A stretch of DNA of 20,000 nt, from the NCBI GenBank assembly GCA_000934665.2, contig KZ538371.1, positions 57,124 through 77,123 of the forward strand, given 5' to 3'. The number at the start of each line of letters is the position of its first letter. Within the stretch, counting starts at the first letter, position 1. Under the pieces are notes generated by a model. The model was not told the origin of the DNA and did no database searches. It was given only the letters and a program-made list of their open reading frames with translations. The stretch is from Catajapyx aquilonaris. Taxonomy: Eukaryota. A program made the translations under genes and the position numbers. Of this stretch, positions 1 through 19,744 are shown piece by piece.

Positions 1-542
1 TTCATTAACTATATCACATAAACATGAATTATGTAGAATTTCTGAAGCACTCCGCTTGACGAAATTCACCAACTTGGGTGTCCAGTCAGTGCTGTCTAAA
101 GACATAAGGAGTAGAAAATACTTTGTTTATAGTAATTTTTGTACCCCCACCTCCCACCCCCTTCCCTGAGAAGTACCCTTCATGTGCATAATTCATGATT
201 TTCGGTTATGCCACTGTATTCCCCATCCCAAGAAACCTCTAGATCCCAAAAATCTCGCCGATAGCACTAATGATAGCTTCCTCAGGGCCTTCATAAAGTG
301 GTCCATTCTTGACCTTTTGACCTCTGTATCTCGAATACGCTTGAGATCGAGGATTTCTCTGGAAGGGTGTTTTCCTTCTAGCTGATAAGGAACCCGGGGA
401 AAAAAAAAATCACCTTGAACTTCGAGAGGTTCCCTTGTTAAATGACATTGTCCATATGCCTTGACAACTGTGACTTCAATGACCTCTGGCAGTGTTGCAG
501 TTAAGGACACAACAGACCTACCATTAATTTGGCATGTAGGTG

Positions 543-1062
543 TCTGACAACCACAGTAACTCTTCTTACCCTCCCAAATTTTGAAATTTTTTGGATTTTC
601 TAATTCTTGGTCTATAGTGTTGTGCAAACATCACCTCGGCTGCTAATTTTCACGCCAAAATAAAAGCTAAATGCGATATTCTGAAGCCACAACACCTAGG
701 AGCCAGTGGCGGGTCGCAGGTCCCTGGTCCCTGCGACCGTAGCGCGATCTAGGGTGGCGTGAGCAAATAAAATATGACCGTACACGCTTTGAAATCGATT
801 TTTGTAGCAATTTATGAATCAAGTTTAATCATCATTTACATATCACAGATATCAGTCACGACGACACGCGACCTGCCATCCACGAGCGGATGCAGGTGTT
901 GTGGCTTCGGAATTTCGGTCTTTTGGCTTGTGTTTTGACCCTGCTAACGTGAAAATTAGCAGCAGAAGTGATGTTTGCACAACACTATAGGTCGAGTAGA
1001 ATTAGAAAATCCAAAAAATTTCAAAACTTAGGAGGGTAAGAAGAGTTAGTTCGGTTGTGAGA
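543..1062. mobile_element. MITE / foldback element with long imperfect terminal inverted repeats
   Basis: 543-~657 (tctgacaaccacagtaactcttcttaccctcc...ctgctaattttcacg) is the imperfect reverse complement of ~948-1062. A further inner IR pairs gaagccacaacacct (683-697) with aggtgttgtggcttc (894-908). No clear TSD. Confidence 0.75.
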
Positions 1063-2235
1063 ATTATTACAGTCAATATTATTGGTATTGTCGATTTTTA
1101 ATACAACGTTCACTTTGTCCACCATGTGTAGGAGTAGGAAGTCATAGTAGTTAATGATTTGTCAGAAAAACACTAAAACATCTGCTGTTGCAACCTCTGT
1201 AGGTATTGTAGTTCTGGAAAAATATTACTGTTCGTTACTGTTATATTGTCAAAAGGCAAATGAATCATATGATGAGCTTGGCAGCAAAGTTGCAGTGCTT
1301 AACATTTGCCTAACCAATACTGCTACAAATGTTGGTTTATTGAGTAGTGAGTAGACACATAAGCCAGTCATGGGAGATAAGGGGATATATGCCCACCTTG
1401 GGGCAGCCCATGTCCTAATCAGTCTTAGCACCCATTCTTCCTAGTTTTATTGAAATTTATAATAATTACTCATTAATAAATATCCACACTGATGATTTGG
1501 AATCTTGGGGTGCCTCTCCTCTAAGGGGAGGAAGCATTCTGCGAAAATACATGACATCATTCTATGAGGGTGGGATAATCCATGATGTCACTCCATTGGG
1601 GGTCAATGCAAAGGTGGCACCAGCCAGGCCCAGTTGCTCAGAGGGGATTCTTGATCCCCTCGAACATCCACAGCCTGCTCAGTCTCAATCATGTGACAAG
1701 GTGAGGGTAAACCCCCTTCTTGCCAATGATGTCTGTTGGTCATGGGATGCAGGAGAAGGCAGATTGTGAGGCAGATTGAACCCACTCTTCCAAGCTTGGC
1801 TCCAATAAAGAGTATCCACTTGCACACAGGGTCAACGTAAATCCATAGACAGAGCAACGAGGTTCACACTGGATCAAAGTGGTGTGTGACTGCAGTGTGT
1901 CCAAGTTTGGGTATACCAATAAAAGTGCAGGGTCCTTTTAAAAAAAATATGTTAAGAGTGTGATGGCATAATAAATTAAGCTAGCCAATCAGGAATGGGC
2001 ATGTCCGCTCTCCTGAATGAGAACAGTACTGCTACTGCAGGTTAATTAAATCCTAATGTACGGAAAATGAGAGAACGATCTGACATCATCAAGGTTTCCA
2101 TGAAAATGCCCTCACAGAACAATGTGAGTAAACAGTGTCAACAAAAAGCAACAATGGAAGAAACGATGACGTCAGATCGTTCTCTCGTTTTCCGTACATT
2201 TGTCATATTCCTTACATACAGGGTGTTGCTTACTA

Positions 2236-2955
2236 GTATGGCCAATGGCAATCAGGGTATTCCTTGGGCCAAGACAAGTCAAAAATGTAGGGGGGAGAAA
2301 TGCTGAGGGACCAACTGTTAACACGGTAGACAACCAGAAACCTTGGCCTACCCTTAGACACATGCAGCAACACACACAATGCCTCTTTGTAGGGAGATTG
2401 CCTGGCAGATGATTGGCTAGGGAGCAGGATACGAGAGTGATAATCACTTCTGAAAAAAAGGCGATCTTGCAAAATCCCAACAGTAATGATTATCATGCTC
2501 CCTAGCCAACCACTGTAAGACGCACGAGTCCATCTGCCAGGCAATCTCCTTACAAAGAGGCGTCATGTGTGTTCCTGCATGTGTCTAGAAGTATACCAAG
2601 GTTTCTAGTTGTCTACCTCGTTAACAGTTGGTGCCTCAACATTTGAGGGGTGCGGTGGGAAAAGGTGATAACCCACAAAATTGTAATATTTCAGGAGAGG
2701 GAATTTAAGTTTGCATGCTCTTAACAAATCATAGGGAATGCAAGTTTTGATCTAGTGATCTAGTCTGTGTGGCCGTCGTGCATGATACGCGAACTTGGAG
2801 TATACCAAACTGTTTGTCATGTCTATTACATAGTTGCTAGGTGTTTAGGTCAAAAATGAGGGTCATCACCTTTTTCCACCACACCCCTAATTTCTCCTCC
2901 CTACATTTTCTACTTGTCTTGGCCCAAGGAATACGCTGACTGCTGTTGGCCATAC
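2236..2955. mobile_element. Palindromic MITE inserted in the left TIR of the outer element
   Basis: TA|GTATGGCC ... GGCCATAC|TA. Left arm 2236-~2412 pairs with ~2530-2644 plus 2890-2955. Extra inner IR at 2413-2431 / 2491-2509. Confidence 0.85.
2645..2889. mobile_element. Short MITE with 4-bp TSD (possibly Sola2-like)
   Basis: TIR aggggtgcggtgggaaaaggtgataaccc / gggtcatcacctttttccaccacacccct, flanked by ATTT at 2641-2644 and 2890-2893. It splits the right arm of the 2236-2955 element. Confidence 0.75.
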
Positions 2956-3443
2956 TACAAGGGCTAGTCGGAAAATAAGTTTCACGATGCTACAGTTTCA
3001 AAGCCATGTGACGGACAGGAAAAGACGAGCATGAGCAGATACGTTGATTCTTCCTCTACTTTACAGGATAGGTAGGCGCCATCTTGCAGCTTATGCGCAG
3101 GTGCGGCAGCCGTTGGACGAGACCGAGCGGCGAGCCGAGCGTGCCCACCCATATACCTTCAGGAAATGTCATGCCAGACAGAGAGAGTTGGTCACATGGA
3201 CCAAGAAAGAAGTTAGGACACTTGAGGACACTGTCAGTAATTGCCTTGGCTGGTAGTCCAGGTCTCTGGTTGTCCTTTACACTCGTGAGCTTATTCTGAA
3301 ATTGCTGGCACCATATCACCGCACCATTTGCTCAGACATGACATCTCCGGACAACTCTCTCCACTAGCCAGCGATTAATGTCATATGTCGTACGTCATAA
3401 TGTCGACCACTGGTAGCAAACATATGCCCTCATTTCTGCCTTA

Positions 3444-3693
3444 AGGCCTCTACACAAATTCGGCGGAAGGCTGAGTGGTCGGAAAATTTGCGATTGGGGC
3501 TCGGAATGTGAGTGGTGGCAATTCACAAATTCAAGCAGTGGCGCTGCGGGCGGAAACTGGTGCGGTGGAAATGGCTCAAGTCCACCTGGATGGACTTGTG
3601 CGATTGCCACCGCTCAGTTCCGCGCCCCAAACCACGCCCCCAAACACACTCTTGCCGCCCGCTCAGCCTTCCGCCGAATTTGTGTAGTGGCCT
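3444..3693. mobile_element. PIF/Harbinger-type MITE
   Basis: TTA|AGGCCTCTACACAAATTCGGCGGAAGGCTGAG ... CTCAGCCTTCCGCCGAATTTGTGTAGTGGCCT|TTA. TIR of ~32 bp with one mismatch and a 3-bp TTA TSD. Confidence 0.85.
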
Positions 3694-4221
3694 TTAGTCC
3701 ATGTGACCAACACTCTCTGTCTGGCATGACTTTTCCTGGCAGAATGTAGGTGGGCATGCTCAGCTCACCACTCAGTATCATCCAACAGTTGCCGCACATG
3801 CACAGAAGTTGCAAGAAGGCGCCTATCCATCCTATAAAGTAGAGGAAGGATCAATGTATCTGCCCATGCTAGTCTTTACCCTGTCTGTCGCATGGTGTCG
3901 AAACTGTAGCATTGCGAAACTTATTTTCCGACTAGCCCGGTCGTAGTAAGAAACACCCTGTATATCACTGCTTTCAAAATTAAGTTTCTTATTCTAAAGT
4001 CATGAGTTCATGTTTTTGTCAGACATGCAGGAATTACATGTCTGTTGAACACACAGAAATGTTCAATTTCTCCTGGGCCCACTTTCATCAAGTATGGTGT
4101 CAAAATAATTCCACCAGCTGGCAGCCAAACTTTCAACAACACACTAGATAAACAAGCATTCTCCAACCAACTGAATGACATCTATAAACACAGTCACACT
4201 CAGGTATAGTATCCCAACATT

Positions 4222-4358
4222 GATGTAATGATGACTCTCAATCAGGCTGAGTCAGCTTATGGACTAAATGGTGGCAGACATCACCCTTGCCAGGATTCGA
4301 ACCTGGGTCCTCCGACTAAAAGCCGGCGCTCTTCCAACTGAGCTACAAGGGCTAAGAG
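4222..4358 (-). mobile_element. tRNA-derived SINE (Lys-like head at 4282-4352)
   Basis: The minus strand reads GCCCTTG TA GCTC AGTTGGAA GAGC G CCGGC TTTTA GTCGG AGGAC CCAGG TTCGAAT CCTGG CAAGGGT G. It has A and B boxes and folds as a cloverleaf, but the anticodon arm is 2 nt short. A short body ends in a CAT-like tail, and an 8-bp direct repeat ccaacatt flanks it (4214-4221, 4359-4366). Confidence 0.75.
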
Positions 4359-4404
4359 CCAACATTTTCCAAAGTCTTCTGCTGACAATGGGGCCATTAG
4401 TTAA

Positions 4405-5036
4405 CACTTAACTACCAACGTGAATCTGCCACACATTGGCTAAGACGTGGGGTATTTATATACCCCACACGGTTATCATTTTTTAAAAAATTTGCCTTAA
4501 TAGCACTAAAGCCATTCTTCCGCGCTAAATTCGGCCTGTATTCTCATCTGTATGTGTAAAAAAAAATCGATCTCCTGTGACCATTAGTTGAGTCATAAGG
4601 GACTTGAGACTCCGTTATCGCACCTTCGTAGCCTTCCAGCTCGATGGCGTAAGTAATGGCTTATAACGTAAACATTCCCAGCTGCAGGGTCTGCAAGATT
4701 TTAGTTGCGAGCAATATTTATTGCTGAATAACAACACTCACACTTTATAAAATACAATTTTGCTGTGATGCGCTGTGATGTGTTCTCTACAAAAATTATG
4801 TGCATTGGGTACGACGTGGGGTATATCTGGACCCTGCAGGGACGCTTAGCAGCAGAAAAGTACCGGTAACTCCGCAAAAAAAAAAATCTACTGATGTCAA
4901 AAATTTTCTTTGGATCGAAGAAAGTATGTCTGAGGAATATAGGCCTGCCATTTTTCATTTCATACAAAATTTATTAATCGCGATGGTATTAACTACATTG
5001 TGGGGTAGAAAAATACCCCACGTTGGTAGTTAAGTG
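4405..5036. mobile_element. piggyBac-like MITE
   Basis: TTAA|CACTTAACTACCAACGTG ... CACGTTGGTAGTTAAGTG|TTAA: perfect 18-bp TIR, TTAA TSD and subterminal tggggta-N-tacccca palindromes. Confidence 0.85.
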
Positions 5037-5661
5037 TTAAGAGTAAACTGGACCTGTTCCACTATCTGGTTGCTTCTATGGCGAAGTTACCATAGAATAG
5101 ATCACCTTGGTCATTAATGAACAAATATTTAAGGTAACACACCATAAAAATGAAACTTTCAATCACAGAATGCCACTACAGCAGCATCTATACTGGTTGT
5201 TGCCCTAGAAACCAGTGGTACAGGTCAACCCAGGTCAAGTCCTCGTAATGACCCCAAAGACACCAGCCATCACTACTTCATACCCCCCCTGACATGCCAC
5301 CTGACATTTCCACGCCCATGAATCAGCCCAGGGCAGTTGGTTACTCCTACTTACAGACTGATTAGCTGGCTGCAGCCCCTCCATGAGGCGTTCAGGCTTG
5401 TCTGCGTCCATCTTGAACCTGTCTGTTCGTTGCGAAAATCGTCCATTGGATACACTGGATATCGTCAAAAAGTGGAATAGTAGTGGGTGCGATGGTATCA
5501 TTCTGCGTATACCAGCTGCCCGTGGTGAGTCTGCTTTTATCAGATGTGCTGAAATGTACTGGCAGGATTTCGAGTTGCAGGAGTGCTATCGAATGGGGAG
5601 AGGTGCAAAAACGATGATCATTGTTGCGGCGTAACATTCAGCAATCATTGAGGCTCCAAAG

Positions 5662-5734
5662 ATGAGGGACATCTTACTGGCAATTCTCTCCGTCTTGGTG
5701 TCTTTAGTTTTGGTCTTACTCTTTGTTTGTTTAG
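5662..5734 (+). CDS. SMIM13: Small integral membrane protein 13-like, coding exon 1
   Basis: aagATG start, then MRDILLAILSVLVSLVLVLLFVCL(G), a hydrophobic TM segment. Consensus donor AG|gtaagt at 5735, phase 1. Confidence 0.9.
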
Positions 5735-6375
5735 GTAAGTGATTGGTGTGGGTGTCGTCCAACTGTGTCAGCGTCACTGATTCCTTCAGCCTTCGTTCAG
5801 TCCCTGTTGTGCTTTGTGGCAGTGGTGAAGCTTGCTTTTTTCAACCAGGTCCTTTTTAGTGGCACATCTGGATCCAAACCCTGGACGACTTGGAATATGG
5901 TATAGTATTGCTCCAGTGCACACTTTCAAAGTGGAAAATTTTTGTCAGGAAAGATGTTGATATTTGAAGCAAAATGCAAGTATAAAGTATTAGGATGAGA
6001 AAGTCAGAAACTGATGGCAAATTCCAGCGGTGCAGTCTCTGTATTAGGTGTGTAAGACATTTCTTTTGTGTGACGGGTTTTCTTAATACCAGTTGCATTG
6101 AAATGGGTATGCATTAACCACACCTAACCGTTACCCCTAATCATTTTCTTCCATCCAACGTTCCTGCTACTGGTATTTGAAAATGCCTTATGTTATGGTT
6201 TAATTTGTCTTCAGTAGCACTGTTATTGCACCCAGCTGAACTACAGCTAATTGCATGCCATAACCTGTGTCCTTGAAAGCTCTGTCACCTTTGCTTCCAA
6301 TATGAACCTGTATTATTCACCTGAGAGGGCTCAAGGAAACTAAAGCCTTCCAGAAATTACACAATGTTGTTTCAG

Positions 6376-6509
6376 GTTGGTACATTGTTTGGAAGCTGTT
6401 TTTGTCACGGTTCAAGTTTGTGCGTGAGCTGCTTGGAACAGCCGGTGGATCAACTCTTGAAGATGATCCACTGAGCATCAAAAGCAGAGTGAAAGTGCGA
6501 CGGGATTAA
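6376..6509 (+). CDS. SMIM13: Small integral membrane protein 13-like, coding exon 2
   Basis: Acceptor ttgtttcag|, phase 1. Encodes GWYIVWKLFLSRFKFVRELLGTAGGSTLEDDPLSIKSRVKVRRD*, matching the SMIM13 signature as I recall it (GWY.VW.LFLS.FKF.REL.G). Total protein 68 aa. Confidence 0.9.
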
Positions 6510-6871
6510 TGGCAGCGATGTACGTTAAGTATGGTGTGCTGTAATGATCCACAATATGTACTGTATGAGGAAGGCTTTGCTCGAGGCTTTGCTAATAATG
6601 CTTGGTGCATTGAAATGATGACTGATATTTAGTTTTCCGAATGCTTAATTGTTCATTGTGATAGGAGGAACTCTTTCGGACCAATACTGCATAAAGTTAA
6701 CGTTGTTTTTAATATAGTATAACTTCTACATAGTACACTCAAACATCTTTAAGTCAAAGTGTTATATAAGTTGAAGAAGATGAAATGGTATTGGTTAGAG
6801 TCTTCATGTTAAGTACAGTACTAGAAATTAAACTGTCCCAAGTTGAATTTTTATTTCTAAAAGTTCTCCAT

Positions 6872-6981
6872 CAGGGATGGAAAAAGAAGCGCTTCTTGGA
6901 AGGAAGCGGTTCTTTTTTCCATGTTCAGGGTTGTAAAAAAGAACCGCTTCCTTCCAAGAAGCGGTTCTTTTTCCATCCCTG
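6872..6981. mobile_element. 110-bp hAT-type palindromic MITE, copy 1
   Basis: CAGGGATGGAAAAAG...CTTTTTCCATCCCTG with a perfect 8-bp TSD ttctccat (6864-6871, 6982-6989). Confidence 0.9.
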
Positions 6982-7864
6982 TTCTCCATAGTTTGAATTG
7001 CTCACAGTAACTTACTATGGTGTTAGGCATTTTTCAGTCCCCACAAGTCAAAGACTGTATCATATTCCGGCGAGTATTTCCACAGCATTGCCTAAGCCTA
7101 AAGCAGACCATGCCATGAGAATTGAATTGCAAGAGGGAGAGTCCACTGACATTTTTGGATTTTTACATTGTTGCTGGAAGCCCTGTCACTTTATAATTAC
7201 ATTCACTCTTCCATAAGTTGGAAGTTTTTGCTATTGTCCCTTGCAGATTCTAGTAACAGAAATTCCACTGTATAGATTTTCAACAATACCATGTTTTTTT
7301 CTAGTGACAATACAAAATTTGCTACTGTATTTTTAACAATATTTCATGTTTCAGGTGCTTAAGCCACACAAACATGGAGCGATTGTCTCTCTTGGCGAAT
7401 GGGGACAGTGTTACCAGTTGCTGGTTCCTCACCCCATAATTGCCACCGTTGTAGGTGTCGCATCGTAATTCAGCTTTGATCCACACATGTTGATTAGGTC
7501 TGGGTAATCCATATTGGTAACTTGTTATTCATGTTCATTGTTATTCAATTTGTAGTTGGACCATGTTGTTGAAATTGTAGATTTATGGTGGATAATATTC
7601 AGGTTTAATGTTATTTAATGCATTGTGCTCTCGTTTACTGTTTATTCAACACCAATGTTACTTGGACTGCATGAAAAAGATAGTGAATATTATAATTCAA
7701 TGACAGGGATGTGTAAAATGTGGCGGGATTGCTTTGGCAGCTTATTACAAGTAAATCTAGACTGGGTTTTTCTGACATGTATAGTGATATTTTATATATG
7801 GCCAAAAATGTAAACAAAAATAATATTCCATTATTATGTAGTGTGGTACAATGTACATTTAAAA

Positions 7865-7870
7865 AATAAA
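7865..7870 (+). promoter_or_regulatory. Candidate polyadenylation signal for the SMIM13-like gene
   Basis: AATAAA at the end of an AT-rich, UTR-like stretch downstream of the stop codon. Confidence 0.35.
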
Positions 7871-8373
7871 TTATATTTTGAACAAAGAAGTAAAAAGTTC
7901 TTAATTGATATAGTTACATTATTATCAAGTGAGCAGTTAGAGCACAAACGTGAGTATGCATGAACATTGTAGAGAGAATAGCAATGCATTTGGCTGAGAA
8001 GGCAAAGTAGAGATTGAGTCTCAAAAATGAGAGTAAAGAAGCAGGTTATGTTGGAAATTGGGTGATGGGCTGTTTTGTATCATATATTATGATACATTGT
8101 AAAATGCCCATTATTGATAATATTGCAATCAAAGTGCTTGTGAACTACACAGGCAGTAAGGCTAGAGCGCTAGACCAACCATATGGTTTTTATCACTTAG
8201 CCTACACCATTTAAGTAAACTGCTGGGGAAAAAACTGTCTTGGACTCTGGCAAGTGGCAAGCAATGCACATGTAGTCAGGGGTGGAAGCATGCTTGAGTG
8301 CAATGTGATTCATGAGCTCTTCCACCCACACTGGCTTGCTTGCCAGTTAGTCCCTGCTTGCAGGGGTACTACA

Positions 8374-8526
8374 ACTGTATCATCAGTTCAAAAAGAATTG
8401 TCCCAGTCATCCTGATGTGTGTGCTGCCCGCTCGACACACACCATGTAACTTACATGGTGTGTGTCGAGCGGCCAGCCCACACGTCAGGATGACTGGGAC
8501 AGTTCTTTTTGCACTGTTGATACAGT
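8374..8526. repeat. Near-perfect ~150-bp palindrome (hairpin MITE-like)
   Basis: actgtatca...gctcgacacacaccatgtaa c ttacatggtgtgtgtcgagc...tgatacagt; the arms meet at 8450. Confidence 0.85.
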
Positions 8527-8879
8527 ATCATACGAGGCAGTTTTTTTCAGCACTGTATGGGTGTATGCCATTGCTGTTCTTAGTGCAGCACATATGGCAG
8601 TGAAGTCAATACCATACATTAAGTGTTCATTAGCAGCATCAAATTACTCTACACTTTTAGCCCTTAAAATGTATCAATTATTTTTTTTACCAATGGGTTT
8701 CAGTACCTGTTACTGACCCCAGGAATCTTGGCCTTCAGAATAGTATAGTACATTGCAATTAGTGATGACCTTGTTTAAGACGACTATCCCACCATTTCTG
8801 GGATATTTTAAGCAAGCCCATTATTTCCCAGTGCCCTGGAGGAAATGACCAGTAAAAGTAATTCAGCTGCAAAACTGTG

Positions 8880-9000
8880 TTGGCCCCATCATTCTGACTC
8901 TTACCTGTTCCCTAATCTGAAGAAACACCTGAAGGGAAAGAAATTTTCAACCCTTGCAGAGATCACATCCAATACGGATTACACTTTTGTAGCCCAATTG
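8880..9000 (+). pseudogene. Mariner transposase C-terminal remnant
   Basis: SDSYLFPNLKKHLKGKKFST resembles the mariner motif that follows YSPDLAP (SD.xLF..LK..L.G.xF). The upstream part is degenerate. Confidence 0.65.
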
Positions 9001-9384
9001 TTAACCTGGGATGGTGCCATCACTGCCATGGGCACTTTTTGTGACCAAGGTCACTTTTTTGGTTACAACTTGGAAAACATAGAACCATTGGGAACATCTT
9101 TGTTTGATTCTTTCTGTGATCAGTCGCATTTAGTTTAAATTTTTCGAGCAAATAGCACAATCCTCTGCCCAAGTTAACAATCCAGAAGATAGGGGACACA
9201 GAAGAGTTGAAGGGTTTCTCTCTCCTGGGCCAATTTCAAACTCCAGTTTAGATATGGACCTGGTATGAGTCTTCCTTTACTTTTTTCGCATCCCACCAAC
9301 TTTGTTTACATTGCCAGAGGTGATTAATTCATCAACTCTTCCCTATCCCCATCTTCCAATTCATCAAATAGGGCAGAACCTCAC

Positions 9385-9765: not shown

Positions 9766-10606
9766 TGTACACATGACTTGTGCAGCTACACCACCTGGTC
9801 ACAAAATAATAATGTGCTTGTTCAGGTCTGTGAATTTAAAAAAAATAACATTTCATGATTCCCCCNCCCCCCCCCAATCCATGTGTAATGTATTTTTGTA
9901 TGATAGTGTAACTATTCACTGTAAAGTAACAGGAACTACCACAATTAACAGCACCAGACATGTATTTAGAATGAATGGAACCCAAATACATGCACAACTC
10001 TTGGTAAAAACATACAAGGGGCAAGCCCTGTGAATACATATACAGCACTTAAGTCCGGCTTTGTCTGTCCCCTCATGGCATTGTTCAGTCATAAGATATG
10101 CACATATCATTTCTCTTACCATCTTCTCCGGCACCGGTTCTTAGTATTTCTATTATGCCTCAGGAGTTTCTTGAATATAAGTACTAGAAATCACACATCA
10201 GAATTTTCATTTTATGAACCCATCCCACCCACCCTTCCCTGGGTAAAAGACTGCAAAAGATACAAAATCATTACCAGAAAATTTTAAAACCTAGCACGAA
10301 CAACATTGACTCCATGAATGCAAAAAAAAGCTACATGTTGGCAGCCAATGTTGCAACAAGATCGTTTGTTGTGAAAAGTTTGCGCTGTCAGTTGATTATT
10401 GTCGACAAAAAGTGTTGGTCCGACCAAGGTTTTAGGTACAGCTGCCACAGTTGGGAACACTGAACACCCCGTTTTACTAGTGTAGGCTACCTACCCTTCC
10501 CCTCCTACAGATTAATACTCAACGTAGAATGTGATTATTTTTAAATCTGTGAGCAAAATTGTGCCCGATTGTAACACAATCAACACTTAGTTATAGTTTG
10601 ACTCCA

Positions 10607-10640
10607 AGAGAGAGAGAGAGAGAGAGAAAGAGAGAGGAGA
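10607..10640. repeat. (AG)n microsatellite in the presumed Cas 3' UTR
   Basis: Direct reading; ~310 nt downstream of the Cas stop codon. Confidence 0.9.
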
Positions 10641-10950
10641 CAGATCCATTCTATTGCTCTGCTCTTCACTGCAGATTCCAGGGGGTTTCCCCGAAGCAAT
10701 ATTTTGGAAGAGTGCAAAGAATGGGTCAGGCTCATCCCTCAAATCCCTTGACCCTCTTACCTCCAACTGCAGCATTTACAACCTGAAGAAGAGGTAATAA
10801 TTGGAAAGATGGATCTTCTTATGTACACTCTACTCTTTGTACTTCAACAAAACAAGAGTTAAAATTCATTCCACCAGCAGAACTAATTGTCTCAGCATTG
10901 TAGACCTCTTCTTTCGGAGTAAATAATTTGTACACCAAAAGCGAGGCAAT

Positions 10951-11367
10951 TTAGCATCGGGCAGCTTGCGCTATGATGAGCTTCAACTCATAGGCGAGGT
11001 GAGAAATGTCAACCACAGAGTCAACCATCTCCTGAACAGCAGCCACGCTGGGAAATTGCAGTGCAGCCTTTTTAGTGGCCTGCACTGTTGAACGCAAACC
11101 ATCAAAAAGCTTGTTGGACCCCTGCAGAACTTTGGCACGCACTTCTGCAGATACAATGTTGCGATGAACAGTGTCACCAATGTATACCAGCTTATGTGCA
11201 CTTAGGATCACAAATTTGGAATGGGCAATGAAGATTTTCGGAGGCTGATTGCGCTCAATGGTCAGCAAAAAGGCGTCAATGGCATTGGTGAGGTACACCA
11301 CATGGGTCTCAGCCTGGGCTGAGTAGAACTGCACGACTTGTTTGTCATTTGGGTCCAGCACCAGGCC
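10951..11367 (-). CDS. BCAR1: p130Cas/BCAR1-family protein, terminal exon (C-terminal Cas-homology / FAT-like domain)
   Basis: Acceptor ttgtttcag|GGC, phase 0. GLVLDPNDKQVVQFY...NQPPKIFIAHSKFVILSAHKLVYIGDT...TKKAALQFPSVAAVQEMVD...ARC* carries the hallmark Cas C-terminal motifs. Confidence 0.95.
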   Translation of the reverse strand, partial: GLVLDPNDKQVVQFYSAQAETHVVYLTNAIDAFLLTIERNQPPKIFIAHSKFVILSAHKLVYIGDTVHRNIVSAEVRAKVLQGSNKLFDGLRSTVQATKKAALQFPSVAAVQEMVDSVVDISHLAYELKLIIAQAARC

Positions 11368-11679
11368 CTGAAACAAGTTGTTGGAAAAAATTACAATTGG
11401 AACATTCCCGAAAAAAACAGGCCTATTTTGGACATTCTGAATTGTAATTATTTCTCCTTACAAACACAAAACATAATTGAATATACACACTTGACATTGA
11501 TGGAAATGGTAGTTACCAATACTTGCACCCTGAGAGTGCTGTCAGCATAGAAGATATGCAATGTGTTCCAACTGAAATGCCTGTAGTGCTTGGCAATTTT
11601 TTGGAACTAAGCTGCTTCTTTTTCAGAATAGAGATCAGGGGTCTCTGCAGCCTTGTTACAGAGATAATTAGCATTAAAT

Positions 11680-12130
11680 TTTTGGACAACCACGTGTTGC
11701 CTTTTGTTCAACATCTCAAGGAGGAACACATTCGGGACACCCCAATCTTCCAAGACGATAATATAATTACTGAGTGCACACGTCTAAAACCATCTGTGAT
11801 TAGCGCAACAAGCATTCAGGAAGCCTCTCACACATTGACTGGCCAGTAAAGTCCACAGATTTGAATCCTGTTATTAATCTGTGGCACTACTTGTAACAAG
11901 GAGTAAACACACCTTGTTCCAAGTAGTCCCATGATTTTCAATAGGATTCAAATCCATAGACATTGCTGGCCAGTGAAGGTTGTGTGACTCGGAATGCTCC
12001 TCATACGAGTCACAGACAGTCTTAGCCCTGTGCCACAGCATTGCTGTCCTGGAAGATTGGGGTATCCAGAATGTGTTCCTCCTTGAGAGGCTGAACAAAA
12101 GGCAACACTGGTCATACAGAATCCGAATGT
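11680..12130. mobile_element. Fold-back (inverted duplicated) Tc1-like transposase remnant
   Basis: The + strand gives HVLPFVQHLKEEHIRDTPIFQDDN ... (frameshift) HIDWPVKSTDLNPVINLWHYL*. The - strand gives LHWPAMSMDLNPIEN. Both resemble the Tc1 FQ.DN and WP..SPDLNPIEN.W motifs. The arms meet at 11905-11908. Confidence 0.8.
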
Positions 12131-12552
12131 AGCCCAGCTGGTTGAAGTGCAGTCACCTCAACCCAAGGCCCCAATTCATTTTAAGTCAACCACCACCAAA
12201 TCATCCCTGCCAGTGCTAACATGAACTCAGTTCTTACTTCTAATGGAGGGGGCAGGGGAGGAGGGGTCTAATTTTTTTGGTCTGGTATGTGCATTTTGTA
12301 TAGCCCCTAAAAGTTACTGTTTGAATGTACAAACTACTTCACAATAAGGCCCTTGGTTCCAAAAATTCCCTAACCAATGAGTACTCTTCAGTTGGAACAG
12401 ACAATATATTCACAGAGATTCATGTTATGTTCAAATGAAGTTAATGTCTGTTACACACACAAACATAACATGTTGAAATTGGCAGATTTACCACAGTTAG
12501 AATGCCTCAATTGTCCACCTATAACATACACAAATATCATTATGAATTGTAC

Positions 12553-12855
12553 CTCCGATCCTGATACAGGGACCTGCGACTCCTTGACAAGGTTGTCAAA
12601 GGACTTGCACAGCTCCTTGGGTAGTGACTGTTTTATATCCTCATGTTCCCGCTCCACTGCCTCTTTGGATTCCAAATTAACGTAGTCATAGTCCTCTATC
12701 CAATCTTTGCTGTCATTCTCATACACATTTTCATGATCGATACATTTTCCTCTTTTGGCAGGTGTCTCTGGCTTGTTCTCATCTCCATCTGGCAAGCCCT
12801 GTTGCACTGGAGCCTGGACAGCAGCAGATCTCTTGAACAACAGTGTGGAATTGCC
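12553..12855 (-). CDS. BCAR1: p130Cas/BCAR1-family exon (Src-binding region with YDYV)
   Basis: ttcttttcag|GNSTLLFKR...WIEDYDYVNLESKE...SGSE|gtacaa; 303 nt, phase 0-0. Confidence 0.9.
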
Positions 12856-12920
12856 CTGAAAAGAATGAGTGATAAGAGAAATGGAAAATATACATGTTTC
12901 ATAGAGGCCACAAGGGATAC

Positions 12921-13487
12921 CTGAATAAATGAAGCAACTTGGCGCACGTCTTCAGTTAGTGTCCTTGCACAACTGACAAGTTGGTCCAGTTGGTCAGGAA
13001 CAACTGGTTCACCCCCAAGTTTGGCTGTGGACCATCCAAGGGCATCCAGCTCACCACTGCTCCGTTGCACCAAACTGTTAGTTTCTTGCAGTGGCCTAGT
13101 GAGTTTGAGCAGCTTGTGTGCCAGGTTTGGATCCTGAGCTTTGGTTGAATTGACAAGTGCACCTTGTGCAAAGTCAACAAACTCCTGCAGAGCTGTCCTC
13201 AGTCTCACCACTGCCAGCTTCACCTCATACACCTTTGCCTCCAGATTATCCTTACGTCGCCAAGTAGGACTTACAAAGGAGAGGAGCTTCGAGATGGAGC
13301 CATGGACTTCCTGCTGAAGCTTAATGAGGGTGTCAACAGCTGAAGCTAGTTCTAGGGGCAGCTCTTTGCCACCCAATTCAGCCAGATCATGAGAGTCGCG
13401 ACTTGAGTCAGAACCAGAAGACAGTCGCAATAATACATTGCCTTTATCATCTTCAGAATGGCGACGAGGGAATGAGTCACGCATGAC
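12921..13487 (-). CDS. BCAR1: p130Cas/BCAR1-family exon (serine-rich four-helix bundle domain)
   Basis: ccttgcag|VMRDSFPRR...ELPLELASAVDTLIKLQQEV...DQLDQLVSCARTLTEDVRQVASFIQ|gtatcc; 567 nt, phase 0-0; followed by a 65-nt intron. Confidence 0.92.
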
Positions 13488-13591
13488 CTGCAAGGATTTA
13501 AATTGCACCGATCAGATTGTTTGCAAAATCATAAGAACTTGTTACCCCTGATGTGCCTCTATGACAAATTTTTAAGTGGTATAATTGTGGT

Positions 13592-13701
13592 CAGGGATGG
13601 AAAAAGAACCGCTTCTTGGAAGGAAGCTGTTCTTTTTTCCATGTTCAGGGTTGGAAAAAAGAACCGCTTCCTTCCAAGTAGCGGTACTTTTTCCATCCCT
13701 G
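13592..13701. mobile_element. 110-bp hAT-type palindromic MITE, copy 2 (Cas intron)
   Basis: Near-identical to 6872-6981, with its own perfect 8-bp TSD attgtggt (13584-13591, 13702-13709). Confidence 0.9.
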
Positions 13702-13895
13702 ATTGTGGTCATTCAATAGTATCATAAATAATCATTCATATAAATTCTAAGTGTTGTGACGTTTTCAGACACATTACACCCAAGCGCACCCCTATGGGGT
13801 CAAGTGACCAACATTGTCTACCAGCTCACAATCAGAAGTGACCTTGTCTTAGAATATATTTAAGATTTAACCAATCTCAATATATAGTTTGTTAC

Positions 13896-14306
13896 CTGAG
13901 GAGGAACATCATATACCCCTTCTGGTGGGGCTAGGATTCGGGGAACATCATACGCATCTCCGGCTAAAATACTGGGACCCTTTGGAACATCATATTCTGG
14001 ATCAGCAATGATTCCATCAGCAAATCCAGCAGAAGACATGGTACTGGTGGCTGTGGTTGTGGTAGTAGATGCAGGTTGCCTAGATGGTGAAATATCATAG
14101 GTATCGCCCGTTGCATGCTCTAGACTAGAGCGATTTGACAGACAAAGGCTTTCTGAGGCTGTCAGTGATGAAGCACTGCTTGAGGGTGACAGCTGGGAGC
14201 TTGCAGTTGATAGAAGTGACACCCCACTTGAGCGGTTACTTGACCCAAGTGTAGCAGCATGGATCCTAGGGAGGTCGTATGTTTCTGTTGGCTCACCTTC
14301 ACTGAC
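13896..14306 (-). CDS. BCAR1: p130Cas/BCAR1-family exon (substrate domain, YDxP motifs)
   Basis: atccacag|VSEGEPTETYDLPR...SNRSSGVS...EYDVP...AYDVP...VYDVPPQ|gtaaca; 411 nt, phase 0-0. Confidence 0.9.
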
Positions 14307-14684
14307 CTGTGGATTGCACTGTTATTAGTTAAATGGGTTACATATCATAAGTCAAATCAATTTACTCCGACTCGTACTTCGACTACTGTACATTGTGTAC
14401 CATGTGCATTTGTCCTCCCCATAACATTCAAGTGTTTGTGCCTACATTTATCTGAAATTCTCTGCCTGGTGCTTTTCTCCAGCCACCTGTATAGCGCAAG
14501 GTTTCTGTTAGCATGAAAGTAATATTTTCTAGGGGTCAATAAAAAGTTGCTTATCTCCATGTGTATAGTACATTTGCCTGCATTGTCCAGTTCCTTGACA
14601 CCTGTAGGTATTTTGCAAGATAGTAAGTTTCTATGAGCAACTCAAACTCTCACCATATGTAGGCCTACGTGTGAGGGTAGGGAT

Positions 14685-14917
14685 AGTCCAGGGTCCCCCA
14701 CCAGGGGGAGTTCACAAACTATGTACCATATTAGAAACTTTGCACTGCACATTGCACATCCCCTCCTGTCACCCTGCCCGTGGGCCCAGGCATTTCGCGA
14801 AAGGTCCCACTATGTACGAATGGCTAAAATAAAGGTCCGTGCTTGTACCCAAGGTGTCAGAAGCACTACCCACTATTATTATTATTATTAATTATTATTA
14901 TTATTATTATTATTATT
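14685..14917 (+). mobile_element. Retroposed fragment (5'-truncated LINE 3' end or SINE) with (TAT)n tail
   Basis: Ends in (TAT)n at 14874-14917 and is flanked by a perfect 14-bp direct repeat gtgagggtagggat (14671-14684, 14918-14931). Confidence 0.8.
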
Positions 14918-15032
14918 GTGAGGGTAGGGATGTTTCTTATTTAAGAGTGTTTGCATAATTCGGGTAACTTGTCTGTATATCCAATGGGTTCATTTTCAAT
15001 TGTACAGCTCATTACGCTGATAGCTATTACAG

Positions 15033-15563
15033 CAGCAGTTCTCAAACTTTTCCACAACAGGCCCCCCTAGAAAGTAATTTCAGATTTGCCCCCCCCCCCC
15101 AGAAAAAGCCCGAAAAAACCCGGCGCAGCCATTTTTTTTGTTCAAGGTCACACAAACTTAGGTGAATGTAATAACTGACAAAGTACAGTGGAATCCTCCT
15201 ATACTGTAAGCACATTGGATATAAGCAAGTAGAAAGATCGATCCCGTCATATTTCCAGCAGTGCCAATGTCCAAGCACAGTTGAATCCGGATATAACAGA
15301 CTTGTCTGCTATTATTATCTGACTGCACAAATCCTTATTCAGAACTGCACATTTGGCTTTTAGAACTGCACGAATTGTGTAGAACTGCACGCTACAGTAA
15401 GCCCTGAGAAGTAGTTCTTACCTAATCAGCGCGACTTTTGTCCTGTTTCGAGTCATACGAGTCACATAATTTTTGGATTCGCCCCGCACCCCCCCCCCCC
15501 CCNCCCCCCCCCAGGGGGCGCGCCCCACTCTAACAACCGTGCCCCACAGCTTGAGAACCGCTG
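15033..15563. mobile_element. hAT-type MITE
   Basis: CAGCAGTTCTCAA ... TTGAGAACCGCTG termini, 8-bp TSD tattacag / tattacac (7/8 match), poly-C subterminal tracts and an internal agaactgcac x3 repeat. Confidence 0.75.
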
Positions 15564-16503
15564 TATTACACACACATTTCGCAAAAGGTTTGACATGGTG
15601 GCCACATTATAATCAATATTTATCTCAAAAAGTATTCCACCTCCTCTTGTTGGGAATATGTGGGGTATCATCCCGATCAAACCTGGTGTCATCAGGATCA
15701 AACTTGGTGTCAGCATATTCCTAACACTTGAGCCTCCATCCTCTCTTCCCTTATGGATCTACCCCATCCACATGCAGATGACCTGCCTCTTTTATCCTCT
15801 CCTATCAGTCCTATGCCATCATCCCTCCCAACAACATAGCCAGGATGGTCGGCAGCCTTTGGTACACCTGTGAGTAATTCTACAAAATCCCAACCCCTAA
15901 ATGTACGCTCAGTAACTCCCTTTTGCATTGTTTTGTACAATGTGAGAGCTGGCCTCCCTCTGACTCTGAAGGGTCACTCAGGGTCATGGACATGGTCATG
16001 GCCCAAGCAAGCACCTGCTGCAGACAACCTGTGTATTAGGACAAGCCTCATCTGAGGCTGCCGCATGACTGCTACACTGTCAGTGGAAGTCTAACTTTGA
16101 ACCCCACCTCCTCTCACGCAAGCCAATCAGAATGAGTGTCATTGTAAAATTAGAATTTACTATTAATTAAGTTGCACAAATGGATTTAAGCACTATGGCT
16201 TCTACAGTAAAAGCTTCAATTCAATTGCAGTGCAAGTAAAATAATTTCTATTCATTGTCTTAATTTAATTTACCAGGCCATATCTGATTACACCTACATG
16301 GCTTTGCCCACATACTGTGCCCTACTGAATGTACCGATACAATACAAATTTTACGGAAACAGGAGGAAAGAGGAACATGTGCAGGGGCCTTCATAGATAC
16401 GCAATACCTGTGCATTGGCAGAACTGGTGTAAAAATAATGTCCTTCCACACACCATCCCTTGAAGTACTTGCAGTATAGAGTATACTGACAATGCCCACT
16501 AAC

Positions 16504-16724
16504 CTGTACATGTATGGGTCTGGGAATATCATAGCTGTCAAGATCTGACGGTGGTGTTGGAGTCGATTCTGGTGAAGCTCTGCTGCCTTTGCTCCTTGGA
16601 GTCTGCCTGTATGGTATCTTCGCTCCCTTCATTGCATTCACTTCTTTCCCCGAGGTCTTCGGATGTAAACTCCGGGGACTGTCATAGGATTCACTGGTTG
16701 CCTTTATCGAATTGGAGTAATTTC
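16504..16724 (-). CDS. BCAR1: p130Cas/BCAR1-family exon (substrate domain)
   Basis: tgtttgcag|(G)NYSNSIKATSESYDSPR...LDSYDIPRPIHVQ|gttagt; phase 1-0, compatible with both neighbours. Confidence 0.82.
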
Positions 16725-16847
16725 CTGCAAACATTCATCAAAGTTAGCATCACAATGACTAAAAGTGACAGATATAAGCCCCCACATCGTTCCCACAGTG
16801 AAACCCCCAATTTAGGCTATCAAAAAAGCAACATCTTATGTGTAGAC

Positions 16848-16965
16848 CTTGCCAGGTTTCCAAAGGCTGATGTCGTGCAGGCGGGACATCATAATCCGGC
16901 AGTGCTTTATTGGCAGCTGGAACATCGTAGAGATACACATCGCCCACTTTCTGTGGCGTGATCAC
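16848..16965 (-). CDS. BCAR1: p130Cas/BCAR1-family exon (first visible; start of substrate domain)
   Basis: tactttactttgcag|VITPQKVGDVYLYDVPAANKALPDYDVPPARHQPLETWQ(G)|gtctac; phase 0-1. VITPQKVGDVYLY resembles the post-SH3 segment of Cas proteins. Confidence 0.85.
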
Positions 16966-19744
16966 CTGCAAAGTAAAGTAATCGGGCTTTATTTACGCCA
17001 GGTCTATATCCGATGCTGGGAAATGAAGAGGGATAGAAGAGAGGGGGGTCAGGAGGAGCAAAAGGGGGGGGGGGNGGGGGCAGGCACCCTGTTGCTGAAT
17101 CAGCCTGGGGGCTAGTAGGGGAGGGGGAGATATAGCTCGATACAATGGCTCTGGATCAATATGAACTTCTTTATATGCTTGCATCCTAACTAAGGAAAGG
17201 CTTCAATTACGTATTTTGTGGGGAAATTTGATGCTCAAAGCAGAAACTAATGAATCCGGTTGCACGTGTCTAGATGGCTTATAGCGTGGTTGGCACGATG
17301 AAAGTTACGCAATCGCCGTCCATGTGCTAAGTGAATGAGCTCAGTCCCTTTGTTCTCTTGGAATTATTGGTTTATGAGGGTTTCCCTCGCCCTTGGTCTT
17401 CCCTTGCGGCACGCAAGTGCGCTTCAACATCATCTCTCTGATGTTTTGCTGCCCACTAAGCCATACTGTACAGTATGTTGTTCATTAGAACAAACTATAC
17501 TTAGAAGATGATTCCATTCAGGAATTCACACAACCTCGGAACTTGTACACGATGAGAATAATTCTCACTGACCAACCCATTTTTTAACTTGAAAGAGTTG
17601 GCCGAATGAGGAAAAACCCCACAATCAAATGTGCGAACATTCCCGTTAAGTCAATCTGATATAGGGTAGGCTGATGTCATGTCACTTTTATCATCTACCT
17701 ACGCATGTGTAGTAATGACTCGTTAACAGTGTTATTAGGTGCATTGCTAATTCAAGACTATTCAGGACTACCATGAGACATGATGAAGTGAAGTAGCCAA
17801 TCATATAAGTTTGTCCGAAATTAGTCTACTTCACCGGCGCGGCGGTTGTGACGCAGGCTATGAAAGATAGGATTTTCGCAATTGAGTTTATTTCAAGCTC
17901 TTTTCCTGTCTGTCTCCCTTTCAGCTGATGGGAGCCACGCGAGCATAAAATGGGGGAAACAACCTAGTCAAGCACAATTATGCCTCATTAGAAGACTAAC
18001 GCATGAAAGTACTCGAATAAATCAGGCTCGCATGATTTTTCCGTAACGAAGTAAACAAGTTGGATATAGGCTTATTACGTAGGTCTAGAAGATATTATGG
18101 ACTTGCTTCCACAACAAAGTGGAATGTTTTAAAATATTCATGTATCATTCTTAAATAATTTCCATGGTGGTATATAAAAGTGGTTGTCGGGGATTGTTAC
18201 AAAAAATCAAGAACAGTATTTTCATTTTAAATGTTGATGCAAAATTGTAGTGTAGTAAAAATCGAGGCTTCTAACAGAACGGAAATAATTCAGGATTACT
18301 GTAACTTTCGAACTGAGAGTGATTGTTATGGGGAGTGGCCCGCACCAGAGCAAAAGCACCGCGGTTAGTTTCGGCTTGACCCCCTAGTTGACCCCAGTTA
18401 ATTTTTAGTGAAGATTATTTCACTTACGAGAGATGATACGGTGAAACTATTTATTTCGTGTCCATTCCCGTCTAGCAGAAGAAGAAAACCCAGATTTGTT
18501 TCCCCAAAATTTAAACATGTCATCAAAGGTGCTATAAGTTAATATTGTGGTCGACCCTGCATTATACGTGGAAGGGGAGGAAGGTAGTCTTGGTAAGAAT
18601 AGCCTTTTATTGTGTTAACGTGGATTTTCCCGCATTTGCAAGAAACCACAGGATTTGAATAACTTATGTGTAAGAGCAATGAAGCGATCTAAATTCTGAG
18701 GAAAGTGTGACTTATTAAATATTAATGATGCGAAATTCATCCAGGCTGCTCGGTATTCCCGTAGGTTTGTTAGTCTATTAGGATTATACGGTAATGTGAG
18801 AGCATATATCAAGATTTACAGTACTCGAGGTACCATTAGCAACATTTAGAAATCGATTCTGAATGTAATACAGCCCCAAATAATATATAAAAAGACGGGG
18901 AGCGGCCGCGGCCCTTTTAATCATTCTCAACAAGCTGCCAGGTGTTTCTTATCAAGGCTAAGGACTGCCCCGTAAAGAGAGTAAATAGCAACTATGAAGG
19001 CGATAGCAAAACATATATTTCCATCAAGCATAGTAAGGCAACTATTATGGACTTCCTGTACGCCCAGGAACTTGACACGCAAATCAATCGTAACAAAAAT
19101 AGGGGTTATAAGAAAAACTTGGGATTTTTGTGACAGAAAGTGTTTTTCCCGCAGATAAAGGTGTGTGGTCTGGGCTTTCTTTAATTCCTGGGTTTTATGG
19201 AATCTAAGGTCCGGTTGAGAATCTAAATCTCAAAATATGCATTGTGAACACTTACACATAATGGCATAATCAGATATTTTACGGATCCATAATTAATCAC
19301 CCAATTGACCTCAAAATTGAATTTGTTGCGCCAACTGCTCGACAATAATGCTCGAAATTTACAATCGGAACCACGTTTCTGTTTAAAAATATTTTCAAGC
19401 ATTTCTGGTGAACAAAAAACAGGTCTCATGTAATAATTATGCAAGCTACACTTCCTAAATAAGTGACGCCGCAGTCTTACAGCTTATGCACAAATAGCAG
19501 ATTTAAGTTCCCATTCACATCAGCAAGGATGTCCATTAATGGCCGTATAAGACACCTGACCCCAAAAGTTGAGTCCGCGAAATACACGTACGGATATCAG
19601 CACAAGCCTGACACACACTGCAAATGGAAATGTAAAAAGTCACAAAAAATTGCTTTTACGATAGTGATTATTACATAGATTATACACACGTCTGCAAATC
19701 AAGTGTCATTATCAGCATAGTCGCTAAATAAGTACAAGGCCTAT

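What the first reader, a model, noticed from the sequence alone, without database searches (positions are those of the whole stretch)
5662..6509. Hidden 68-aa SMIM13-like microprotein gene absent from the ORF track
Seen: two short exons with canonical, phase-matched splice sites give a single-TM protein with the GWYIVWKLFLSRFKFVRELLG motif. Known: SMIM13 is a conserved, poorly characterised metazoan microprotein. From memory, human SMIM13 lies next to the Cas-family gene NEDD9 on chromosome 6p24. If so, the SMIM13-Cas convergent pairing here would be ancient bilaterian microsynteny, which could point to shared regulation.
Basis: partly seen in the sequence, partly recalled or inferred. Interest (0 to 1): 0.7.

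Follow-up and report, generated by a model that had tools for sequence, protein, structure and literature searches.

The report
SMIM13 microprotein gene beside Cas adaptor
This arthropod has an ordinary spliced gene for the 68-residue membrane microprotein SMIM13, lying tail-to-tail with the Cas adaptor gene as in humans (likely an old but loosely kept gene order) and head-to-head with PDCD5, and its conserved tail is predicted to be a signal that returns it to the endoplasmic reticulum.

Summary
The gene is real. The two coding exons join by GT-AG in phase 1 into 68 codons. The product matches PF15938 (DUF4750/SMIM13) above cut-off, the gene is single-copy, and run X1 holds the junction (one contig, 26 nt on the short side). 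It has at least four exons, not two.

The Cas gene lies tail-to-tail, 4.4 kb stop to stop. The same arrangement is published for human SMIM13/NEDD9. Linkage is also indicated in a wasp (locus tags two apart) and a beetle-like insect (shared contig lengths). It was not seen in 9 of 11 other invertebrates compared, many with fragmented assemblies. The order is probably ancestral but often lost, and nothing shows shared regulation with Cas.

A spliced PDCD5 gene starts 250 bp upstream, head-to-head, and is the likelier promoter partner. Also, 104 of 121 homologues end in [KR]-x-R-x-[DE], the spacing of a COPI retrieval signal, which gives a testable mechanism. The scan's notes held no earlier report of this gene. 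Verdict: new member of a known family, modest interest.

The parts
5355..5411 (-). PDCD5-like gene, first coding exon (ATG 5411-5409, donor GTAAGT 5354-5349); its other three exons lie left of the window at C669:54801-54912, 53218-53384 and 53100-53159
   Evidence: X1 loose end at 5354 maps to the PF01984 exon at C669:54.9 kb; PF01984 over cut-off on this contig only; 126-aa model with three GT..AG introns
5412..5494 (.). Likely bidirectional promoter between PDCD5 and SMIM13 (inferred)
   Evidence: 250 bp between the two ATGs; SMIM13 contig begins about 5495 and the depth sum shows no other contig in 5436-5669; contigs cannot show true starts
5495..5524 (+). SMIM13 5'-UTR exon (left end is the assembled end, not a proven start)
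   Evidence: joint 5524/5566, GT..AG, 41-nt intron
5566..5734 (+). SMIM13 exon with ATG at 5662 and most of the transmembrane helix
5593..5634 (+). Upstream ORF (ATGs at 5593 and 5614; 13 or 6 codons) ending 27 nt before the main ATG
5735..5899 (+). Alternative exon extension to a donor at 5899; stop after 26 codons, 157 nt before the next junction (predicted decay target)
   Evidence: joint 5899/6376 in one X1 contig, 30 nt short side
6376..6519 (+). SMIM13 exon with the conserved juxtamembrane motif, the basic tail ending KVRRD, and the stop at 6507-6509
   Evidence: PF15938 38.5 bits
6871..6981 (.). 111-nt palindromic MITE-like repeat in the 3'-UTR intron (a 95% copy lies in a Cas intron at 13591-13701)
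   Evidence: 82 matches (both strands counted) genome-wide
7355..7880 (+). SMIM13 non-coding last exon (covered to 7803; AATAAA at 7865; right end approximate)
   Evidence: joint 6519/7355 with 145 nt short side
10682..11367 (-). Cas (p130Cas/BCAR1-like) last exon, C-terminal FAT-like domain, stop at 10953-10951
   Evidence: PF12026 199.9 bits; X1 contig
12553..16967 (-). Five further Cas exons (12553-12855, 12921-13487, 13896-14306, 16504-16724, 16848-16967) with eight YxxP motifs and the serine-rich domain; the SH3 exons are on contig C2084
   Evidence: five joints in X1; PF08824 154.3 bits

Best explanation
This is the genome's single SMIM13 gene, spliced into a 68-residue single-pass membrane protein that is predicted to sit in the early secretory pathway with its tail in the cytosol, likely returned to the ER by COPI through its terminal K-x-R-x-D, and likely transcribed from a promoter shared with PDCD5; its tail-to-tail position beside Cas is likely a leftover of ancestral gene order rather than co-regulation. 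Shown: gene structure, family, single copy, both neighbours, the conserved tail. Inferred: topology (charge bias), COPI binding (motif spacing plus published rules), the shared promoter (distance), the age of the Cas linkage (vertebrates plus three arthropod lineages). The near-invariant stretch just after the helix most likely binds one conserved ER/Golgi membrane protein, to which SMIM13 would act as a small accessory subunit; that partner is not identified.
For: Family and copy number; Atlas look-alikes of a stand-in homologue are all DUF4750 clusters, one of them chordate SMIM13 at 0.90. Splicing. Topology: Kyte-Doolittle peak 3.34; mean net charge -0.65 before and +2.65 after the helix in 55 of 57 aligned homologues. 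Tail: [KR]-x-R-x-[DE] at the C-terminus in 104 of 121 homologues; R-x-[DE] in 106 against a shuffle mean of 4 and maximum of 12; linker length varies from 23 to 73 residues; 21 of 26 named genera, from molluscs, annelids and arthropods. K-x-R-x-x is listed among COPI dibasic motifs, and a C-terminal acidic residue tightens binding to alpha-COP WD40 (bioRxiv 10.1101/2021.09.03.458953, passages). YFP-tagged human SMIM13 localises to the ER and binds SERCA poorly (bioRxiv 10.64898/2026.04.24.719962, one part read). PDCD5 head-to-head. Linkage: human tail-to-tail and 'highly conserved in vertebrates' (PMC5826361); pig gene list ELOVL2, SMIM13, NEDD9, TMEM170B (PMC7823679); Microctonus hyperodae PV327_001826 and PV327_001824 on the same 11,802,376-bp contig; two unnamed contigs of 4,182 and 5,467 bp that by length carry both genes of one beetle-like species.
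Against: Lysine, not arginine, is the textbook residue at position -3 of COPI signals (recalled); none of 55 homologues has a canonical KKxx or KxKxx end. Amphioxus SMIM13 lacks the tail and I fetched no vertebrate sequence, so the tail may be protostome-only and the human ER result need not depend on it. Orientation in the wasp and beetle is unknown and one locus tag lies between the wasp genes. No amphioxus, echinoderm or spiralian case of linkage was found. All transcript evidence is one run of contigs.
Confidence: 0.65

Rival explanations
1. The SMIM13-Cas pair is kept together by selection: Cas enhancers lie in or behind SMIM13, or the two 3' UTRs overlap and regulate each other.
For: Same tail-to-tail order in this arthropod and in humans. 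Enhancer-in-neighbour blocks are a documented cause of ancient microsynteny (PMC3514665, abstract).
Against: Not linked in 9 of 11 other invertebrate comparisons. Here the assembled 3' ends are 2.2-2.9 kb apart (7803 against 10045-10682). Conserved co-regulated pairs are mostly head-to-head, and other orientations are kept in only 15-25% of cases (PMC3514665 section 7). The only sequence shared by introns of both genes is a common repeat.
Confidence: 0.2
2. The adjacency arose twice, once in vertebrates and once in mandibulate arthropods, by chance.
For: All three positive invertebrate cases are arthropods. Both molluscs tested had the genes on different scaffolds. The other vertebrate neighbours (ELOVL, TMEM170, CFDP1) are on other contigs here.
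Against: The chance that a given gene has the same neighbour in the same orientation is of the order of a few in 10,000 (estimate), whereas nearly 600 ancient pairs are documented. The mollusc and several arthropod assemblies are fragmented.
Confidence: 0.1
3. The basic tail is a nuclear-import or inner-nuclear-membrane signal, or a C-terminal degron, and not a COPI signal.
For: The last 12 residues carry a mean net charge of +4.5, as nuclear localisation signals do; arginine at -3 also features in C-end degrons (recalled).
Against: The pattern is fixed to the free C-terminus with set spacing (-5 basic in 108, -3 Arg in 108, -1 acidic in 114 of 121), which import signals do not need.
Confidence: 0.2

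Closest known systems
SMIM13 / C6orf228 family (Pfam PF15938, DUF4750)
   Same: Pfam over cut-off; 49-59% identity to mollusc, annelid, arthropod and amphioxus members; one N-terminal helix; conserved juxtamembrane motif; same intron position
   Different: Nothing of substance. Extra UTR introns, an upstream ORF and an alternative donor were seen here and not compared elsewhere.
Human SMIM13-NEDD9 locus (chromosome 6)
   Same: Tail-to-tail with a Cas-family gene (PMC5826361)
   Different: Here 4.4 kb stop to stop with a single Cas gene; the upstream neighbour is PDCD5 at 250 bp, whereas in human it is ELOVL2 at 49,917 bp and ERVFRD-1 lies inside SMIM13 (PMC7530604 table S3)
Conserved ancient microsyntenic pairs (Irimia et al. 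2012, PMC3514665)
   Same: Unrelated neighbours shared by vertebrates and arthropods
   Different: Convergent rather than head-to-head, and lost or unconfirmed in most invertebrates checked; whether the pair is on their list could not be read
COPI dibasic retrieval signals (KxKxx, KxHxx, KxRxx)
   Same: Basic residues at -5 and -3, acidic C-terminal residue, on a predicted cytosolic tail
   Different: Arg rather than Lys at -3; binding not tested

Membership tests
SMIM13 / DUF4750 | PF15938 above the gathering score | tested here: met
   38.5 bits against 27 on exon 2 alone; 41.6 bits in the genome search
SMIM13 / DUF4750 | Under 100 aa with one N-terminal transmembrane helix | tested here: met
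   68 aa, hydropathy peak 3.34; a model of homologue P0055 is one helix over residues 2-52 with a disordered tail
SMIM13 / DUF4750 | Invariant W, V-W, S, F and E of the juxtamembrane motif | tested here: met
   invariant in all 58 rows including the window exon
SMIM13 / DUF4750 | One-to-one orthology with vertebrate SMIM13 | tested here: inconclusive
   single copy here; 48.5% identity to amphioxus SMIM13; chordate SMIM13 cluster at 0.90 in the Atlas for a stand-in; no vertebrate sequence was aligned
Cas family (neighbour) | SH3, YxxP substrate domain, serine-rich bundle, C-terminal FAT-like domain | tested here: met
   SH3 exons on C2084 linked by the X1 loose end
PDCD5 (neighbour) | PF01984 over cut-off, about 125 aa | tested here: met
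   55.3 bits; 126-aa model
Ancient microsyntenic pair | Adjacent (at most one gene between) in several distant lineages | tested here: inconclusive
   vertebrates, this arthropod, a wasp and a beetle-like insect positive; 9 other invertebrate comparisons negative or fragmented; amphioxus and cnidarians untested
Co-regulated gene pair (SMIM13-Cas) | Head-to-head orientation with a short shared promoter | tested here: not met
   the pair is convergent; PDCD5-SMIM13 is the head-to-head pair
Co-regulated gene pair (SMIM13-Cas) | Correlated expression or shared enhancers | not testable with these tools
   one run, contigs only
COPI-retrieved cargo | Tail binds alpha- or beta'-COP and is needed for ER residence | not testable with these tools
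   motif conservation only

The most novel reading that the evidence does not exclude
PDCD5-SMIM13-Cas is a compact gene triplet inherited from the bilaterian ancestor, in which SMIM13 shares a promoter with PDCD5 and is held tail-to-tail with Cas by enhancers or overlapping 3' ends. SMIM13 itself is a COPI-cycled accessory subunit of an ER/Golgi membrane complex, and its protostome K-x-R-x-D/E tail is a natural, widespread arginine variant of the dilysine signal. That would give the first mechanism for an uncharacterised human microprotein family.
Probability: 0.12. Interest if true: 0.6.

Novelty: new member of a known kind. Interest (0 to 1): 0.33.

Why it matters
SMIM13 is a conserved animal microprotein for which my searches found no mechanistic study (listings, and passages of four of the listed papers). 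The conserved tail gives a concrete, cheap test of where it lives and why. The vertebrate SMIM13-NEDD9 linkage is in print; its extension to arthropods was not found in print and would date the pair to the bilaterian ancestor. Ancient pairs number in the hundreds, so one more is a modest addition unless a constraint is shown.

Tried and rejected
No RNA holder is listed as such for the stretch; X1 was used because its contigs skip GT..AG introns. No solved structure matches by sequence (best E 1.4, TolQ) or by fold (0 matches). The post-helix segment is not more amphipathic than its shuffles (p 0.38), so an amphipathic-helix claim was dropped. No Pfam-detectable gene lies between SMIM13 and Cas among the 17 frames of 66 codons or more scanned from that interval; short or finely split genes could be missed. 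Neither PDCD5 nor Cas was found in the 13 metagenome loci; 12 of them are under 3.3 kb. Of eight unnamed Cas representatives and one more chosen in hope of amphioxus, annelid or bivalve matches, only Batillaria gave a same-species pair; tick, bee and ant clusters gave none. TMEM170, CFDP1 and ELOVL genes are on other contigs, and C3758 shows no end overlap with C2084. The repeat shared by SMIM13 and Cas introns was rejected as a regulatory link. The sigma-70 promoter scan does not apply to an animal. The careful tree did not finish; the quick tree was used. Supplements: Irimia 2012 could not be read; Touceda-Suarez 2020 gives only counts for its 1,538 pairs, so the pair may be on an unpublished list; SMIM13 is absent from the supplements of PMC6292497 and PMC13508932. 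PMC12633080 gave nothing of use. No complex prediction was run, because gene adjacency alone does not justify it.

Full report
Observation. ATG 5662, a GTAAGT donor after 5734 and a TTTCAG acceptor before 6376 give 68 codons and a stop at 6507-6509; the other eight nearby combinations lack GT..AG. Exon 2 scores 38.5 bits on PF15938 (DUF4750), cut-off 27. The family has one locus over the cut-off in the 285.6-Mb genome. The spliced product aligns end to end with scallop SMIM13 (59% over 68 residues) and at 49-59% with nine other homologues tried. The gene is missing from an ORF list only because the intron splits it.

Transcript evidence. One run, X1, holds the stretch; its kind is not on record. 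Its contigs skip four GT..AG introns in SMIM13 and five in Cas, so they behave as spliced RNA. The coding junction is in one contig with 26 nt on the short side, below the tool's 31-nt bar, so it is supported but thinly. Independent support comes from relatives: in 8 of 13 metagenome loci (7 distinct) an AG falls at the same place, inside the Gly codon before the conserved Trp, and the other 5 are continuous. X1 also shows a 41-nt 5'-UTR intron, an 835-nt intron 10 nt after the stop, a non-coding last exon, and an alternative donor at 5899 that brings a stop 157 nt before the next junction. A short upstream ORF ends 27 nt before the main ATG.

Neighbours. On the right, on the minus strand, is a Cas-family gene: PF12026 and PF08824 over cut-off, eight YxxP motifs in a 678-residue partial model, and SH3 exons on contig C2084. 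Its stop is 4.4 kb from SMIM13's. A quick tree places it among arthropods, outside the insect, malacostracan and chelicerate groups sampled; its best named match is the centipede Strigamia, and its exact place is not resolved. On the left, an X1 loose end at 5354 maps 7.6 kb away to an exon of a PDCD5-like gene. Its first coding exon is 5411-5355 on the minus strand, so PDCD5 and SMIM13 are head-to-head with 250 bp between ATGs. It is the arrangement that usually marks a shared promoter (PMC3514665, section 7 read).

Synteny. Human SMIM13 and NEDD9 are tail-to-tail, and the association is described as highly conserved in vertebrates (PMC5826361, passages); a pig gene list agrees (PMC7823679, one passage). 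No animal genome browser was available, so I compared locus tags, accessions and contig lengths for invertebrates in which both genes turned up. Linked, 2 of 11: Microctonus hyperodae (PV327_001826 and PV327_001824; KAK0167980 and KAK0167978; same 11,802,376-bp contig), and one unnamed beetle-like insect whose SMIM13 and Cas proteins share contig lengths of 4,182 and 5,467 bp. Not linked, 9 of 11: Gryllus longicercus, Amblyomma americanum, Cloeon dipterum, two Petrolisthes species, Mytilus galloprovincialis and Batillaria attramentaria have the genes on different scaffolds; Tachypleus has SMIM13 on a different chromosome from the two Cas copies seen; and contig L015 has SMIM13 among Snf7, ArfGAP, cytochrome c1 and AP-2 genes with no Cas within 10 kb. 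Four of these comparisons involve a scaffold under 150 kb and prove little. I put ancestral adjacency at about 0.85 and a functional constraint at about 0.2.

Mechanism. The protein has one hydrophobic stretch, and charges in 55 of 57 aligned homologues (two dropped for lacking my anchor pattern) favour a lumenal N-terminus and cytosolic tail. Two parts are conserved. The first is the stretch after the helix, with six invariant columns in 58 rows; such invariance in a tiny protein most likely reflects one conserved binding partner (inference). The second is the extreme C-terminus: [KR]-x-R-x-[DE] ends 104 of 121 homologues (a set with redundant and partial entries) across a linker of variable length, and 21 of 26 named genera. 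The window protein ends KVRRD. [quoted passage not shown] Tagged human SMIM13 is in the ER and binds SERCA poorly (bioRxiv 10.64898/2026.04.24.719962, part 2 of 6 read); a review counts it among secretory-network proteins (PMC9265605, one passage). I therefore commit to an ER/cis-Golgi accessory microprotein retrieved by COPI. Against this, no homologue has a canonical dilysine end, amphioxus lacks the tail, and binding is untested.

Known and new. The gene is a plain SMIM13 member. The vertebrate linkage is published. Searches for SMIM13 with NEDD9, the long names, microsynteny with NEDD9, PDCD5 with bidirectional promoter and Cas-family synteny found no report of the arthropod linkage or of PDCD5-SMIM13; I saw listings only, apart from the papers named above. 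I ran no search aimed at the tail motif in SMIM13, and the SMIM13 listings showed no mechanistic paper. The full lists of ancient pairs could not be read and may hold this pair. The scan's own notes had nothing on this gene.

Verdict. Observation confirmed; interpretation partly supported; new member of a known kind; interest 0.33.

Noticed in passing
window 5355-5411 (-) and G000:C669:53100-54912: Four-exon PDCD5-like gene, head-to-head with SMIM13; its 7,565-nt first intron covers window 1-5354.
   Followed up: yes
window 5735-5899: Alternative donor gives a 26-codon product with a premature stop; possible control of SMIM13 by splicing-linked decay.
   Followed up: partly
window 6871-6981 and 13591-13701: 111-nt palindromic MITE-like family, many copies at 96-99% identity elsewhere in the genome, suggesting recent activity.
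   Followed up: partly
window 543-1062, 2055-2957, 2961-3938, 8374-8526, 11694-12108: Several nested inverted-repeat elements in introns and the intergenic gap, probably non-autonomous DNA transposons.
   Followed up: no
window 11481-12152 and 8812-9138: Decayed transposase-like frames: a weak DDE_3 match at 11877-12152 (E 0.0024, under cut-off); the frame at 8812 looks mariner-like by eye only.
   Followed up: partly
window 5525-5565 and 12856-12920; C669 PDCD5 intron 3: Very short introns (41, 65 and 58 nt) beside multi-kilobase ones; the first two are seen as joints in X1.
   Followed up: no
G000, contigs such as C146, C776, C2313, C2861, C2911: Large tandem expansion of ELO-family fatty-acid elongase genes (148 exon-level matches).
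   Followed up: no
L006:1268-1522 (+); L002:4550-4801 (-): Further genes left of PDCD5 on C669: a sulfotransferase exon (over cut-off) and a weak molybdenum-cofactor-synthesis match.
   Followed up: no
L015:5685-19926: In an unidentified animal contig SMIM13 lies among Snf7, ArfGAP, cytochrome c1 and AP-2 genes.
   Followed up: partly
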